A program made the position numbers. DNA of 64,000 nt, taken from positions 76,198,001 to 76,262,000 of the forward strand of contig OZ241828.1 of NCBI GenBank assembly GCA_965202585.1, written 5' to 3'. Each line of letters opens with the position of its first letter. Position 1 is the stretch's first letter. Origin of the DNA: Thalia democratica (taxonomy: Eukaryota). Positions 33,001 through 39,000 of the stretch are shown in pieces.

Positions 33001-36000
33001 AAACTTAAGCAGATATATTCATTTACAGCATGTGACTGAATGGATAATTTTTTATTAATAGAACTTAAATGCAATAAAGTATTTTATTACTTTGTATGAT
33101 CACATTATGTAAAAAAAAAATTAATTTAGTTGCTTTTAATTAAAATAAATAGCATTTTTAGTATTATCAAAATTTGTGCCAAATATTTTTTTAATTAAGC
33201 AGTAATCTATATTTTTAAATATGTAAAAAATATATAACGTTTTTATTTATATTAACATACGGTTGTTTATAAAGACAAAAACCTATCTTAAACCTCACTA
33301 TGTTGTTTTCTTTTCATTTTTAAATAAGTTTAAGCCTAGTTTAGTTTTATACGATGTTTAAACAAAATTTCTTGTAAATTTAAGCTATTGAAAACTACTT
33401 TAATAAGCAAACTTTTATGATTAATTTGACTTAAATCTATTCTCGTTGTAATACTGTCTATTCATACTGTATATCAGTTTTAAAATATTTGTATGAAGTT
33501 TAATTTAATCATGAGTGTTTTTTTAATCGCACTCATAACTTTTGAGTTAAAATAAAATATAAATTATTAGATAAATAGCTAAACTTTTAAGAACAATTTA
33601 TTATACTGTAGAGTTGATTTTTCTCTAACCAGGAGACCTTAAAAAATGATTTCAAATATACATTTAAACCTTACAAGCTTAATCATTACGTGAAAAATAT
33701 ACTTTTTGTTAATATATATAAATGATACAGCAATAAAGCATATTATATATATGTACTAACAAACAAAATATATAACATAACTACATAGTAATCAAAATAA
33801 ATAAAACGAACTCACTTTACGACCAGTGTGTCGTTTTGCAGCTAGCGAATTTGACAATTTAAACTTTAAGATGTTATGTTGCGGCGACGCGTCGAAGTAC
33901 GAATCCCTATCCCCCACTGACAAGCCATTGTTCGAGTTGAAGCCAGAAGATTTAGAGGCGAATGAAGACGAGGTCATGGAAGCGGAACCAGTCATCGGTT
34001 GCGTTCCAGGAGACATTGTCGTCACAGTCTGGCTCCTGGCGTGCTGCTTCAGCAGAATGGACTTTCTGTCAGTCATACTACCGACTTCGTTACTATCATT
34101 TTTCACATCATCCACCATGCCCCGAGCCCCCTGTTGAATTACATTGAAATGCTTTAAAAAATGTAATAAATGATTAAATTTTTCCTTGTTTTAACTAAAA
34201 ATTAGACTGTATTTATATTTACTAGAACTTAAAAACAATAAGGTATTTTATTACTATACACGATCACATTATGAAAACAGAAAATAAATTAAATGCTTTC
34301 AATTAAAGTAAATACCATTTAAAGTATAATAAAAATTTCACCGAAGAGGTCACCGAAGCGGATCCAGTCGTCGGTATCTTTCCAGGAGACATTGTCGTCG
34401 CAGTCTGGTTCCTGGCGCGCTGCTTGAGCAGAATAGACTTGTTTTCAGTCATACTACCGACTTCGTTACTATCATTTTTCACATAATCCACCATGCCCCA
34501 TGCCCCCTGTTGAATAATATTGAAATTCATTAAAAATTTATAATAAATGATTAAATTTTTCCTTATTTTAAAACTAAATTAGACTGTTTTTTTTTCAAAA
34601 CATTTTATAAAGGTAAAATGACTGCAAAACAGATTTTGTTTGTTGCAAAATGCGAGTTTGTTGATAAAGTTTTTTATATGTAAGTGATTTTTTTTAATAT
34701 TAGAAACTTAGTTTTACTAAATCTTTAAAACTCATTTTGCCAAAGTTTATCTAAATAAAATTACTAATAGAAACAATTTTCAGTTAAAAAAACTTAAGCA
34801 GATATATTCCTTTACAGCATGTGACTAAATGGATAAATTTTTATTACTAGAAATTAAAAGCAATAAAGTATTTTAATACTACATATGATCACATTATGAA
34901 AACAAAAAATAAATTAAATGCTTTCAATTAAAGTAAATACTATTTATAGTATTATCAAAATTTATGCCAAATGTTTTTTTAATTAAGCAGTAATCTATAT
35001 TTTTAAATATGTAAAATAATATACAACTTTTTGACTTATATAAACATACGGGATAAAACCTACTTTAAACCTCACTATGTCGTTTTCTTTTCATTTACAA
35101 ATCAGTTTAAGCGTAGATTAATTTTATACGATGTTTAAACAAAACTTCTAGTAAATTTATGCTATTGAAAACTACTTTATGAAGCAAAATTTTATAATTT
35201 GTGTGACTGAAACTTATTCTCGTTGCAGCATTGTCTATTCATACTTAATATCAGTTTTAAAATATTTGTATGAAGTTTAATTTAATCATGAGTGTTTTTT
35301 TAATCGCACTCATAACTTTTGAGTTAAAATAAAGTATAAATTATTAGATAAATAGCTAAACTTTTAAGAACAATTTATTATACTGTAGAGTTGATTTTTC
35401 TCTAACCAGGAGACCTTAAAAAATGATTTCAAATATACATTTAAACCTTACAAGCTTAATCATTACGTGAAAAAATATACTTTTTGTTAATAGATATAAA
35501 TGATACAGCAATAAAGCATATTATATATATGTACTAACAAACAAAACATATAAAACTAACTGCATAGTAATCAAAATAAATAAAACGAACTCACTTTACG
35601 ACCAGTGTGTCGTTTTGCAGCTAGCGAATTTGACAATTTAAACTTTAAGATGTTATGTTGCGGCGACGCGTCGAAGTACGAATCCCTATCCCCCACTGAC
35701 AAGCCGTTGTTCGAGTTGAAGCCAGAAGAATTAGAGGCGAATGAAGACGAGGTCACCGAAGCGGAACCAGTCATCGGTTTCTTTCCAGGAGACATTGTCG
35801 TCACAATCTGGCTCCTAGCGCGCTGCTTGAGCAGAATGGACTTTCTGTCAGTCATACTACCGACTTCGTTACTATCATTTTTCACATCATCCACCATGCC
35901 CCATGCCCCCTGTTGAATTACATTGAAATGCTTTAAAAAATGTAATAAATGACCAAATTTTTCTTTGTTTTAACTAAAAATTAGACTGTTTTTTTTTAAT

Positions 36001-39000
36001 TTTCAAAACATTTCATAAAGGTAAAATGACTGCAAAACAGATTTTGTTTGTTGCAAAATGCGAGTTTGTTGATAAAGTTTTTTTATATTTAATTGGTTTT
36101 TTTAATACTAGAAATTTAATTTGAACTCATTTTGCCAAAATTTATCTGAACAAAATTATTGATAGAAACAATTTTCGGTTAAAAAAAAACTTAAGCAAAT
36201 ATATTTATTTACAGTATGTGACTGAATGGATAATTTTTTTATTACTAGAACTTAAAAACAATAAGGTATTTTATTACTATACACGATCACATTATGAAAA
36301 CAGAAAATAAATTAAATGCTTTCAATTAAAGTAAATACCATTTAAAGTATAATAAAAATTTCACCGAAAAGGTCACCGAAGCGGAACCAGTCATCGGTTG
36401 CGTTCCAGGAGACATTGTAGTTGCAGTCTGGTTCCTGGCGTGCTGCTTGAGCAGAATGGACTTTCTGTCAGTCATACTACCGACTTCGTTACTATCATTT
36501 TTCACATAATCCACCATGCCCCATGCCCCCTGTTGAATTACATTGAAATTCATTAAAAATTTATAATAAATGATTAAATTTTTCCTTATTTTAAAACTAA
36601 ATTAGACTGTTTCTTTTTTTTTCAAAACATTTTATACAGGTAAAATGACTGCAAAACAGATTTTGTTTGTTGCAAAATGCGAATTTGTTGATAAAGGTTT
36701 TTATATGTAAGTGATTTTTTTAAATATTAGAAACTTAGTTTTACTAAATTTTTAAAACTCATTTTGCCAAAGTTTATCTAAATATAATTACTAATAGAAA
36801 CAATTTTCAGTTAAAAAAAACTTAAGCAGATATATTCCTTTACAGCATGTGACTAAATGGATAAATTTTTATTACTAGAAATTAAAAGCAATAAAGTATT
36901 TTAATACTACATATGATCACATTATGAAAACAAAAAATAAATTAAATGCTTTCAATTAAAGTAAATACTATTTATAGTATTATCAAAATTTATGCCAAAT
37001 GTTTTTTTAATTAAGCAGTAATCTATATTTTTAAATATGTAAAATAATATACAACTTTTTGACTTATATAAACATACGGGACAAAACCTACTTTAAACCT
37101 CACTATGTCGTTTTCTTTTCATTTACAAATCAGTTTAAGCGTAGATTAATTTTATACGATGTTTAAACAAAACTTCTAGTAAATTTATGCTATTGAAAAC
37201 TACTTTATGAAGCAGATTTTATAATTTGTGTGACTGAAACTTATTCTCGTTGCAGCATTTTCTATTCATACTTAATATCAGTTTTAAAATATTTGTATGA
37301 AGTTTAATTTAATCATGAGTGTTTTTTTAATCGCACTCATAACTTTTGAGTTAAAATAAAGTAGAAATTATTAGATAAATAGCTAAACTTTTAAGAACAA
37401 TTTATTATACTATAGAGTTGATTTTTCTCTAACCAGGAGACCTTAAAAAATGATTTTAAATATACATTTAAACCTTACTAGGTTAATCATTACGAGAAAA
37501 AATATACTTTTTGTTAATAGATATAAATGATACAGCAATAAAGCATATTATATATATGTACTAACAAACAAAACATATAAAACTAACTGCATAGTAATCA
37601 AAATAAATAAAACGAACTCACTTTACGACCAGTGTGTCGTTTTGCAGCTAGCGAATTTGACAATTTAAACTTTAAGATGTCATGTTGCGGCGACGAGTCG
37701 AAGTACGAATCCCTATCCCCCACTGACAAGCCGTTGTTCGAGTTGAAGCCAGAAGAATTGGAGGCGAATGAAGACGAGGTCACCGAGGAAGACACCGAAG
37801 CGGGAACGGTCGTCGGTTGCGTTCCAGGAGACAGTTTCGTCACAGTCTGGTTCCTGGCGCGCTGCTTGAGCAGAATAGACTTCTTGTCAGTTGTGCTACC
37901 GACCTTGTTTCCATCTTGTTTCACATCATCCACCATGCCCCATGCACCCTGTTAATAACGTTGAAATGCATTAAAATTATAATAAATGATTAAAATTTTT
38001 CTCTTTTTTATTATAATTTACACTCTTTTTTTTTTGAAAACATTTTATAAAGGTAAAATGACTACAAAACTGATTTTGTTTGTTGCAAAAAGCACATTTG
38101 TTGATAATTTTTTTTATATATAATTGATTTTTAATATTAGAAAATAAGTCTATTGCATGTTTAAAGATAATTTTGCATAAATTTTTTTAAATAAAGTTAT
38201 ATAAAAAGTTTTAATGGAAACAGTTTAAACATAGTTTTTTAATAAGAAATTGTGAATACATAGATTATTTTAATTTTATTGCTTTAAGTTCAGAGCAATA
38301 AAATATTTGTTACACTTTATAACCTTTATTTTTAAATTATTTGACTTCTTTTGTAAAACTAATTGCCATTTGTGGTTATATCATAAAAGTTTGTGCCAAA
38401 AAAATTTTTATTAGGCATTAAATTTATTTTTTTTAAACTCTTAGCAAATTGTTTAATTTTTTTTAATCTATTGAACATACACGTGTATTTGTCAAAAAAC
38501 AACGGTTTTGAAAGTCTATGTATATTGAATATTTTAGAAGTTTGTTTTATAGATTTTACAATAAAAACACTTATTCTACACATTTTTAATCTAATTTTTT
38601 AAGTATATATAAATTTCCAAGTATTAAATTACTTTTAAAGCTTTTACTAGGTTCAAAGTACAAAATGTAAAATTAATGTCTTAAAGTTAAACAGTTGTTA
38701 AAACTGTACGTAGGTAAAAAAATAAGAATTTAGCTTGTAAAACTTTTTACAAGTTAAATCATAGGTTATTTTTTATATACAATCAAACAACTTACATAAA
38801 TAAATATTCCTAGTAGTAAAATTAAAACTAGCTTCTTCATGGTTTTTTTACGTATAAATGTCTGTATTAAATCAATATTTATACATGTGTTTATGTTCTT
38901 ATTCTTACGTTCTATTCTTTTTTTTTATACTAAATATTGAGCCTTAAAAAAAATCAGTAATAAATACATTCAAAAGTTTCAAAACAAAACATAATAAATG

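What the first reader, a model, noticed from the sequence alone, without database searches (positions are those of the whole stretch)
33816..37948. Array of five symmetric phase-0 exons, each starting with what looks like a signal-peptide cleavage site
Seen: A3-B2-A2-B1-A1 (327/165/315/165/315 nt), all multiples of three, all beginning GA(W/R)G-MVD(D/Y)VK. Full inclusion gives about 429 Ser/Thr-rich residues; any subset stays in frame. Because each copy starts with an A-x-G motif, they look like copies of the first mature-protein exon (inference), allowing mutually exclusive N-termini or variable-length mucin-like stalks. B exons have a weak donor; read-through ends in KFLLYFKWYLL* and would give short forms lacking the Cys-rich domain.
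Basis: partly seen in the sequence, partly recalled or inferred. Interest (0 to 1): 0.66.

Follow-up and report, generated by a model that had tools for sequence, protein, structure and literature searches.

The report
Duplicated exon array in secreted-protein gene
One gene for a secreted, cysteine-rich protein of unknown family has had its second exon copied several times in a row; the copies all stay in frame, but without RNA data nobody can say which of them are used.

Summary
On the minus strand, 33816-37948 carries five homologous open exons of 327, 165, 315, 165 and 315 nt. All start GA(W/R)G-MVD(D/Y)VK and all have AG acceptors and GT donors.

I built the rest of the gene by eye:
- a 45-nt signal-peptide exon lies 847 nt upstream and ends in phase 0;
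- downstream come a 31-nt exon that shifts the phase, a basic R-R-K-R junction, and four phase-1 exons, the last three carrying 11 Cys, ending in a stop.

The array is a young tandem segmental duplication:
- the flanks are 97-100% identical, while the 5' halves of the exons are 6-18% diverged;
- the 165-nt exons are deletion derivatives whose donor was created at the junction;
- a sixth, decayed copy and two relics exist.

Constraint on the copies is weak: pN/pS is 0.50 and there are no frameshifting indels. None of the four known ways of enforcing mutually exclusive splicing fits. Ser+Thr is only 24-27%, so the modules are not mucin-like. No family was found in Pfam, PDB or the ESM Atlas.

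This is ordinary in-frame exon duplication in an unassigned gene. Which copies are used remains open.

The parts
38796..38840 (-). Exon 1 coding part: ATG plus 14 codons (MKKLVLILLLGIFIY), donor gtaagt, ends in phase 0. It encodes the n- and h-regions of a signal peptide.
   Evidence: Read directly. It is the only copy in the window by tblastn.
37622..37948 (-). Array exon, long type, 327 nt (109 aa). It is the most diverged copy and carries a 12-nt in-frame insertion.
36365..36529 (-). Array exon, short type, 165 nt (55 aa), donor gtgaaa.
35595..35909 (-). Array exon, long type, 315 nt (105 aa).
34342..34506 (-). Array exon, short type, 165 nt (55 aa), donor gtgaaa.
33816..34130 (-). Array exon, long type, 315 nt (105 aa); GARG instead of GAWG.
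32426..32527 (-). Sixth, old and AT-rich copy of the exon (102 nt, open, phase 0-0). Same acceptor attcaacag, degraded donor gttcgt. Possibly a pseudo-exon.
31389..31419 (-). 31-nt exon (LTRKSPSRRK plus 1 base), donor gtaagt. It moves the frame from phase 0 to phase 1. With the next exon, the junction codon gives R-R-K-R.
   Evidence: model built by eye
30893..30952 (-). 60-nt phase 1-1 exon, donor gtaagt.
30111..30197 (-). 87-nt phase 1-1 exon with 2 Cys.
29776..29889 (-). 114-nt phase 1-1 exon with 3 Cys.
28916..29100 (-). Last coding exon with 6 Cys, stop TAA at 28918..28916.
22880..23032 (-). Decayed short AT-rich relic of the array exon, with its upstream intron, in the left arm of a large inverted duplication. 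It has in-frame stops.
48211..48360 (+). Mirror relic in the right arm, with stops in all frames. The position of the donor reads ttgagc.

Best explanation
This is one minus-strand gene of an AT-rich eukaryote. It encodes a secreted precursor made of a signal peptide, a low-complexity N-terminal region, a polybasic R-R-K-R junction and a C-terminal part with 11 Cys.

Its second exon carries the end of the signal peptide and the start of the mature chain. That exon, together with flanking intron, was amplified by unequal recombination into three full copies and two truncated copies, plus one older decayed copy.

The truncated copies arose once, by a deletion that fused the first 165 nt of the exon to mid-intron sequence. 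A GT donor was created at that junction, and the truncated copy was then duplicated with the unit.

The ancestral exon is symmetric (phase 0-0), so every copy that the spliceosome recognises is added in frame. The most likely outcome is therefore a chain with two or three, and up to five, tandem modules of about 105 or 55 residues in a region that looks unstructured. A choice of only one copy per transcript is less likely.

Shown here: the anatomy, the phases, the history of the duplication and the weak constraint. Inferred: secretion, cleavage at the basic site, and which copies are included.
For: - Coherent gene model. ATG exon with a gtaagt donor in phase 0. Five open exons with AG/GT sites. 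A 31-nt exon shifts the phase to 1, followed by four phase-1 exons whose junction codons, read by hand, are CGA, AAC, AAG and GAC. A stop closes the frame.
- Coding strand. The sense frame has no stops in 5 of 5 copies and the lowest pN/pS of the six frames, 0.50. The open antisense frame gives 1.38.
- Duplication history. 34212-35706 against 36235-37733 has 92-100 matches per 100 columns, then 79-84 across the 5' half of the exon and the upstream intron. 33474-34211 against 35251-35990 has 92-100 matches per 100 columns (36 of 40 in the last, shorter block).
- Origin of the short exons. Their downstream flank matches mid-intron sequence.
- Indels. There are none in the shared 165 nt in 10 of 10 pairs. 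The 7 pairs whose 200-nt upstream introns are homologous throughout show 2-7 indel events. The only exon indel is 12 nt.
- Structure prediction of one module from the 5-row alignment: mean pLDDT 52.8, pTM 0.11, with a single helix at residues 83-93.
Against: - No transcript data of any kind was available.
- Substitution divergence in the exon halves is about the same as in the flanking introns, for example 0.17 against 0.13-0.16 and 0.079 against 0.036-0.107.
- The 42 variable sites fall 10/12/20 over codon positions 1/2/3. A hand chi-square gives 4.0 with 2 d.f., p about 0.13, so constraint is not significant and unused copies would look the same.
- AT-rich introns are prone to indels anyway, which weakens the indel argument.
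- The short exons have a weaker donor, gtgaaa.
- The downstream exons were found by eye and have no homologues to confirm them.
Confidence: 0.5

Rival explanations
1. Only one copy, probably the first or the last long exon, is used. The others are young silent pseudo-exons inside a long intron that have not yet had time to decay.
For: Exon divergence is about equal to intron divergence. The codon-position bias is not significant. The flanks are 97-100% identical, so the copies are recent. Older copies of the same exon have decayed, at 32527-32426, 23032-22880 and 48211-48360. The short exons have gtgaaa donors.
Against: All 5 copies keep the acceptor, the donor and the frame, including the first copy, which is 16-18% diverged from the others. 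No indel occurs in the shared 165 nt in any of 10 pairs, and the one exon indel is in frame. pN/pS is 0.50 in the sense frame only.
Confidence: 0.25
2. The copies are regulated alternatives, either mutually exclusive or freely combined cassettes. They would give alternative mature N-termini or variable length.
For: The exons are homologous, adjacent, in the same phase, and each can complete the signal peptide after exon 1. Tandem exon duplication is the accepted origin of mutually exclusive clusters (PMC6071210, abstract and Introduction; PMC5740500, passages).
Against: The introns between copies are 1092, 455, 1088 and 211 nt, so there is no steric block. All sites are GT-AG and no donor reads GTATCC, so there is no U2/U12 clash. 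All lengths are multiples of three, so NMD cannot enforce a choice. The best intron-intron complements are AT-rich at 71-81% (25 longest of 90 pairs shown). Duplex energies of the 5' part of intron 1 with the 200 nt upstream of each of the 5 exons lie within about 2 sd of the mean of 15 shuffles, and in 4 of 5 cases within their range. The 165-nt exons break the similar-length criterion. The copies differ little and show no excess of amino-acid change (pN/pS 0.30-0.73).
Confidence: 0.17
3. The array is an assembly expansion of a single exon.
For: About 1.5 kb of two units is 97-100% identical.
Against: Every copy has private differences; 19 of the 42 variable sites are private to the first copy. 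Unit spacings differ, at 2027 and 1779 nt. Two copies are truncated at a defined junction. The window holds no N.
Confidence: 0.03
4. The open frames are not a gene on the minus strand: either a plus-strand gene or no gene at all.
For: One plus-strand frame is also open across the long exons, at 110-114 aa. Its third codon positions coincide with those of the sense frame.
Against: That frame has pN/pS 1.38. It has no matching start exon. The minus-strand model runs from an ATG to a stop through 11 GT-AG exons with consistent phases.
Confidence: 0.05

Closest known systems
In-frame intragenic duplication of exons with their introns, as in the human haptoglobin HP2 allele (1.7-kb duplication of exons 3 and 4; PMC7426911, one passage read)
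   Same: A unit of about 2 kb holding exon plus intron is repeated in tandem inside one secreted-protein gene. The frame is kept, the chain becomes longer, and copy-number polymorphism is to be expected.
   Different: Here there are more copies (three full, two truncated, one decayed). The duplicated exon carries the signal-peptidase site. Inclusion in mRNA is not shown.
Mutually exclusive exon clusters derived from tandem exon duplication (Dscam, 14-3-3 zeta, Mhc, MRP; PMC6071210 Introduction; PMC5740500 passages)
   Same: Adjacent homologous exons with the same phase and open frame, with duplicated flanking introns.
   Different: No enforcing mechanism fits (and direct reading). Two members are half-length. 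Joint inclusion would keep the frame.
Multi-copy secretory precursors with repeated modules separated by basic processing sites, for example insect apidaecin precursors and neuropeptide precursors (recalled, from no call)
   Same: A signal peptide is followed by repeated modules. Each long module ends in the basic motif K-R-H-T-G-R-K. A polybasic site precedes the C-terminal part.
   Different: The modules are 105 residues of low-complexity sequence, not short peptides. No processing has been shown. The repeats sit on separate exons.

Membership tests
Mutually exclusive exon cluster | Neighbouring exons with sequence similarity, translated in the same frame (PMC5740500) | tested here: met
   73-93% amino-acid identity between copies by tblastn. 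All are phase 0-0 and open.
Mutually exclusive exon cluster | Similar exon lengths (PMC5740500 allowed up to 60 nt difference) | tested here: not met
   The long exons are 315, 315 and 327 nt, but the short ones are 165 nt, a difference of 150-162 nt.
Mutually exclusive exon cluster | A mechanism that forbids joint inclusion: steric hindrance, U2/U12 incompatibility, frame shift with NMD, or competing RNA structures (PMC6071210 Introduction) | tested here: not met
   Introns are 211-1092 nt. All sites are GT-AG. All lengths are multiples of 3. No outstanding docking or selector pairing was found. The RNA-structure test was crude: mononucleotide shuffles, 15 each.
Mutually exclusive exon cluster | One and only one exon per mature transcript | not testable with these tools
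   No transcript data.
In-frame intragenic tandem exon duplication | The tandem repeat unit includes exon and flanking intron | tested here: met
In-frame intragenic tandem exon duplication | Duplicated exons are symmetric and keep their splice sites | tested here: met
   The short exons have a weaker gtgaaa donor.
In-frame intragenic tandem exon duplication | The copies are present together in the mRNA | not testable with these tools
   No transcript data.
Secretory preproprotein | N-terminal signal peptide with a basic n-region, a hydrophobic h-region and small residues at -3 and -1 | tested here: inconclusive
   Exon 1 gives MKK plus 12 hydrophobic residues. Each array exon starts G-A-W/R-G. 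This was judged by eye with a recalled rule; no predictor was run.
Secretory preproprotein | Basic convertase-type site before the mature domain | tested here: inconclusive
   R-R-K-R appears across the junction between the 31-nt and the 60-nt exon. It depends on a model built by eye, and cleavage was not tested.
Mucin-like Ser/Thr-rich stalk | Very high Ser+Thr(+Pro) content in tandem repeats (threshold recalled, roughly 40% or more) | tested here: not met
   S+T is 24-27% per exon.
Any described protein domain family | Significant match to Pfam or to a solved structure | tested here: not met
   Searched exon by exon. Pfam gave 0 families for 7 of 7 gene exons searched at E up to 1 or 10. PDB gave 0 matches for 4 of 4 exons at E up to 10. 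The ESM Atlas gave no usable hit for the last exon and a best score of 0.76 for the module.

The most novel reading that the evidence does not exclude
The array works as a combinatorial length and identity switch for a secreted precursor. Every copy can complete the signal peptide and every copy is symmetric. Exon 1 could therefore be spliced to any copy, and any subset could be kept, giving up to 31 in-frame isoforms. These would differ in the mature N-terminus and in the number of basic-site-bounded modules. Gene conversion among copies and copy-number change between individuals would keep the set variable.
Probability: 0.12. Interest if true: 0.5.

Novelty: new member of a known kind. Interest (0 to 1): 0.3.

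Why it matters
If the copies are used, this would be a clean, very young example of how unequal recombination inside introns lengthens a secreted protein module by module. It would also show how a truncated copy can acquire a splice donor at its deletion junction. That is useful for studies of exon duplication and of fast-evolving lineage-restricted secreted proteins. As it stands, it is an annotation-level finding in a gene with no assigned family and no expression evidence.

Tried and rejected
- Family searches. Pfam on the array exons, on the antisense frame, on the downstream exons and on 37 other ORFs of the window gave nothing for the gene. The only hit in the window was a sub-threshold TMEM238 match at 5312-5542.
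- PDB sequence search of four exons gave 0 matches.
- The ESM Atlas gave no usable hit.
- Rfam and tRNA scans of the window gave 0.
- A full-text search for five peptide motifs found 0 papers.
- Structure prediction of the last exon alone gave pLDDT 46.0. That is too poor for a fold search, so none was run.
A smaller version showed nothing above shuffles.
- I looked for a signal-exon homologue upstream of the left relic and found none.
- The idea that the exons evolve faster than their introns was rejected. The apparent excess comes from a mosaic of an older 5' part and a recently homogenised 3' part.
- The idea that the GC-richness of the exons is peculiar to the array was rejected. Another exon at about 2353-2086 is in a 63% GC island.
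- Coordinate slips were corrected.
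Full report
**Setting.** The window is very AT-rich, with 19-30% GC per 2 kb, and contains no N. Rfam and tRNA scans found nothing. The organism could not be named. GT-AG introns of 0.2-2.4 kb and phase 1-1 Cys-containing exons point to an AT-rich eukaryote, probably an animal; that is an inference. I do not take the contig for human.

**The observation.** On the minus strand, the interval 33816-37948 holds five open segments:

| Exon (minus strand) | Length |
|---|---|
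| 37948..37622 | 327 nt |
| 36529..36365 | 165 nt |
| 35909..35595 | 315 nt |
| 34506..34342 | 165 nt |
| 34130..33816 | 315 nt |

- Together they make 1287 nt, or 429 codons.
- All begin GA(W/R)G-MVD(D/Y)VK.
- Four acceptors read attcaacag and one reads attaacag.
- The long exons end ...KRHTGRK followed by gtgagt. The short ones end before gtgaaa.
- Reading through either short exon gives VKFLLYFKWYLL and a stop.
- Ser+Thr is 24-27% per exon, which is moderate rather than mucin-like.

**Which strand codes.** One plus-strand frame is also open over the long exons. Its third codon positions coincide with those of the minus-strand frame, so codon-position counts cannot separate the two. Over the shared 165 nt of the five copies:
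- the minus-strand frame has no stop and the lowest pN/pS of the six frames, 0.50;
- the open plus-strand frame gives 1.38.

Only the minus strand gives a complete gene.

**Gene model.** The model was built by eye and is marked as inference.
- **Signal exon.** An ATG at 38840 opens 15 codons (MKKLVLILLLGIFIY), followed by gtaagt in phase 0. This lies 847 nt upstream of the first array exon. tblastn finds this exon only once in the window. Each array exon can therefore complete a signal peptide with small residues at -3 and -1, G-A-W/R-G. That rule is recalled and no predictor was available.
- **Sixth copy.** Downstream of the array there is an AT-rich open exon at 32527..32426 (102 nt). It has the same attcaacag acceptor but a degraded donor, gttcgt.
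- **Phase shift.** A 31-nt exon at 31419..31389 (LTRKSPSRRK plus one base, donor gtaagt) moves the frame to phase 1.
- **Phase 1-1 exons.** These follow at 30952..30893, 30197..30111 (2 Cys) and 29889..29776 (3 Cys).
- **Last exon.** 29100..28916 carries 6 Cys and the stop.
- **Junction codons.** Read by hand, they are CGA, AAC, AAG and GAC, and none is a stop. The first makes an R-R-K-R motif.
- **Length.** With all five array exons the coding length is 1809 nt.

The model was searched exon by exon only, so the fold of the Cys-rich part remains unknown.

**History of the array.**
- Units repeat with periods of 2027 and 1779 nt.
- Between the two upstream units, 34212-35706 against 36235-37733 shows 92-100 matches per 100 columns. 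Identity then falls to 79-84 across the 5' half of the long exon and its upstream intron.
- Between the middle and downstream units, 33474-34211 against 35251-35990 shows 92-100 matches per 100 columns (36 of 40 in the last, shorter block). Further downstream the value is 77-86.
- The array is therefore a mosaic of an older duplication and recent duplication or homogenisation.
- **Origin of the short exons.** They equal the first 165 nt of the long exon. Their downstream flank matches sequence from the middle of the long intron. They are thus deletion derivatives. The donor GT lies exactly at the junction, where the motif CTTCGGTGA occurs twice. The 12-nt insertion of the first copy lies at the same spot.
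- **Mixed ancestry.** Of 42 variable sites in the shared 165 nt, 19 are private to the first copy. Among the other four copies, 4 sites group long against short exons. Another 3 sites group 36529 with 34130 against 35909 with 34506. These groupings are incompatible, which suggests gene conversion or recurrent change.
- **Relics.** Two further short, AT-rich copies with in-frame stops lie at about 23032-22880 (minus) and 48211-48360 (plus). They sit in the arms of a large inverted duplication, 19098-26903 against 52118-42585 at 82-86% identity. The gene occupies the 15.7-kb centre.

**Constraint.**
- Pairwise pN/pS ranges from 0.30 to 0.73.
- The 42 variable sites fall 10/12/20 over codon positions 1/2/3. 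A hand chi-square gives 4.0, p about 0.13.
- Divergence of the exon halves is about that of the adjacent introns.
- The shared 165 nt has no indel in any of 10 pairs. The 200-nt upstream introns show 2-7 indel events in the 7 pairs that are homologous throughout. The only exon indel is 12 nt.
- This is weak evidence for coding use. AT-rich introns are prone to indels in any case.

**What the module is.**
- No family was found in Pfam, in PDB sequences or in the ESM Atlas.
- A full-text search for five peptide motifs found 0 papers.
- AlphaFold2 on one module with the five copies as alignment gave pLDDT 52.8 and pTM 0.11, with one short helix. This is compatible with disorder, or merely with a family too small to model.
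- The last exon alone gave pLDDT 46.0, so no fold search was made.

**Mutually exclusive use.** The Introduction of PMC6071210 lists four enforcing mechanisms.
- **Steric hindrance.** It needs a very short intron. Here the introns are 1092, 455, 1088 and 211 nt.
- **U2/U12 incompatibility.** All sites here are GT-AG.
- **Frame shift with NMD.** It does not apply to exons whose lengths are multiples of three.
- **Competing RNA structures.** The best inverted matches among the introns are AT-rich and 71-81% complementary, and they do not stand out; 90 pairs were found and the 25 longest shown. Duplex energies between the 5' part of intron 1 and the 200 nt upstream of each of the 5 exons lie within about 2 sd of the mean of 15 mononucleotide shuffles, and in 4 of 5 cases within their range. 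An earlier, larger run timed out.
- **Length criterion.** The similar-length criterion used in PMC5740500 (passages) fails for the short exons.

**Verdict.** This is an ordinary, young, in-frame tandem duplication of the exon that follows the signal-peptide exon, in a gene for a secreted Cys-rich protein of no known family. The closest analogue is intragenic exon duplication such as haptoglobin HP2 (PMC7426911, one passage). Whether several copies, one copy or varying subsets enter the mRNA is open.

**What stayed unchecked.**
'No known family' therefore rests only on Pfam, PDB, the ESM Atlas and one paper search.
- The genome-contig collection holds only bacteria and archaea and was not used.
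- Supplementary files of papers were not consulted.

Noticed in passing
window 19098-26903 and 42585-52118: Large inverted duplication at 82-86% identity, in four collinear pieces. Its 15.7-kb centre holds the gene. Each arm carries a decayed copy of the array exon with its upstream intron.
   Followed up: partly
window 16612-16830 (+), 54475-54705 (-), 60150-60464 (-): Three copies of an open frame of about 70 aa rich in Cys and His (..DYAVWRYPNL..CFLC..CKEVD.HV..H...CGH). Pfam gave no match. It may be an unrecognised zinc-binding module of a repeat or a gene family.
   Followed up: partly
window 19098-19870 (-), 51362-52119 (+), 57361-58108 (+): Three copies of an element richer in GC than its surroundings. 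No Rfam match. Its nature is unknown.
   Followed up: no
window about 27866-28723: Element of about 860 bp just downstream of the gene's stop. It has terminal inverted repeats (CAGTAACCTCTCG... and its complement) flanked by TA. It looks like a Tc1/mariner-type MITE; that classification is recalled.
   Followed up: no
window 2086-2353 (-), and 2549-2557 (-): Terminal exon of another gene, lying in the window's most GC-rich island (peak 63% GC over 120 nt), Ser-rich and ending ...QMLEVC before a stop. It uses the same attcaacag acceptor. A decayed copy of its acceptor and first bases lies 195 nt upstream. ATTCAACAG occurs 7 times on the minus strand against 0.69 expected.
   Followed up: partly
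window 5312-5542 (-): Open frame in a GC-rich island (peak 57% GC) with one transmembrane-like stretch. It has a sub-threshold Pfam match to TMEM238, E = 5.8e-5, 23.7 bits against a cutoff of 27.
   Followed up: no
window 33816-37948, the array exons: The array exons are 48-51% GC with CpG observed/expected of 0.78-1.15, in a 24% GC background. Relative to the short AT-rich relic copies, the long exons carry a GC-rich middle section that the relics lack, by my hand reading. Its origin, whether insertion or deletion in the relics, is unexplained.
   Followed up: partly
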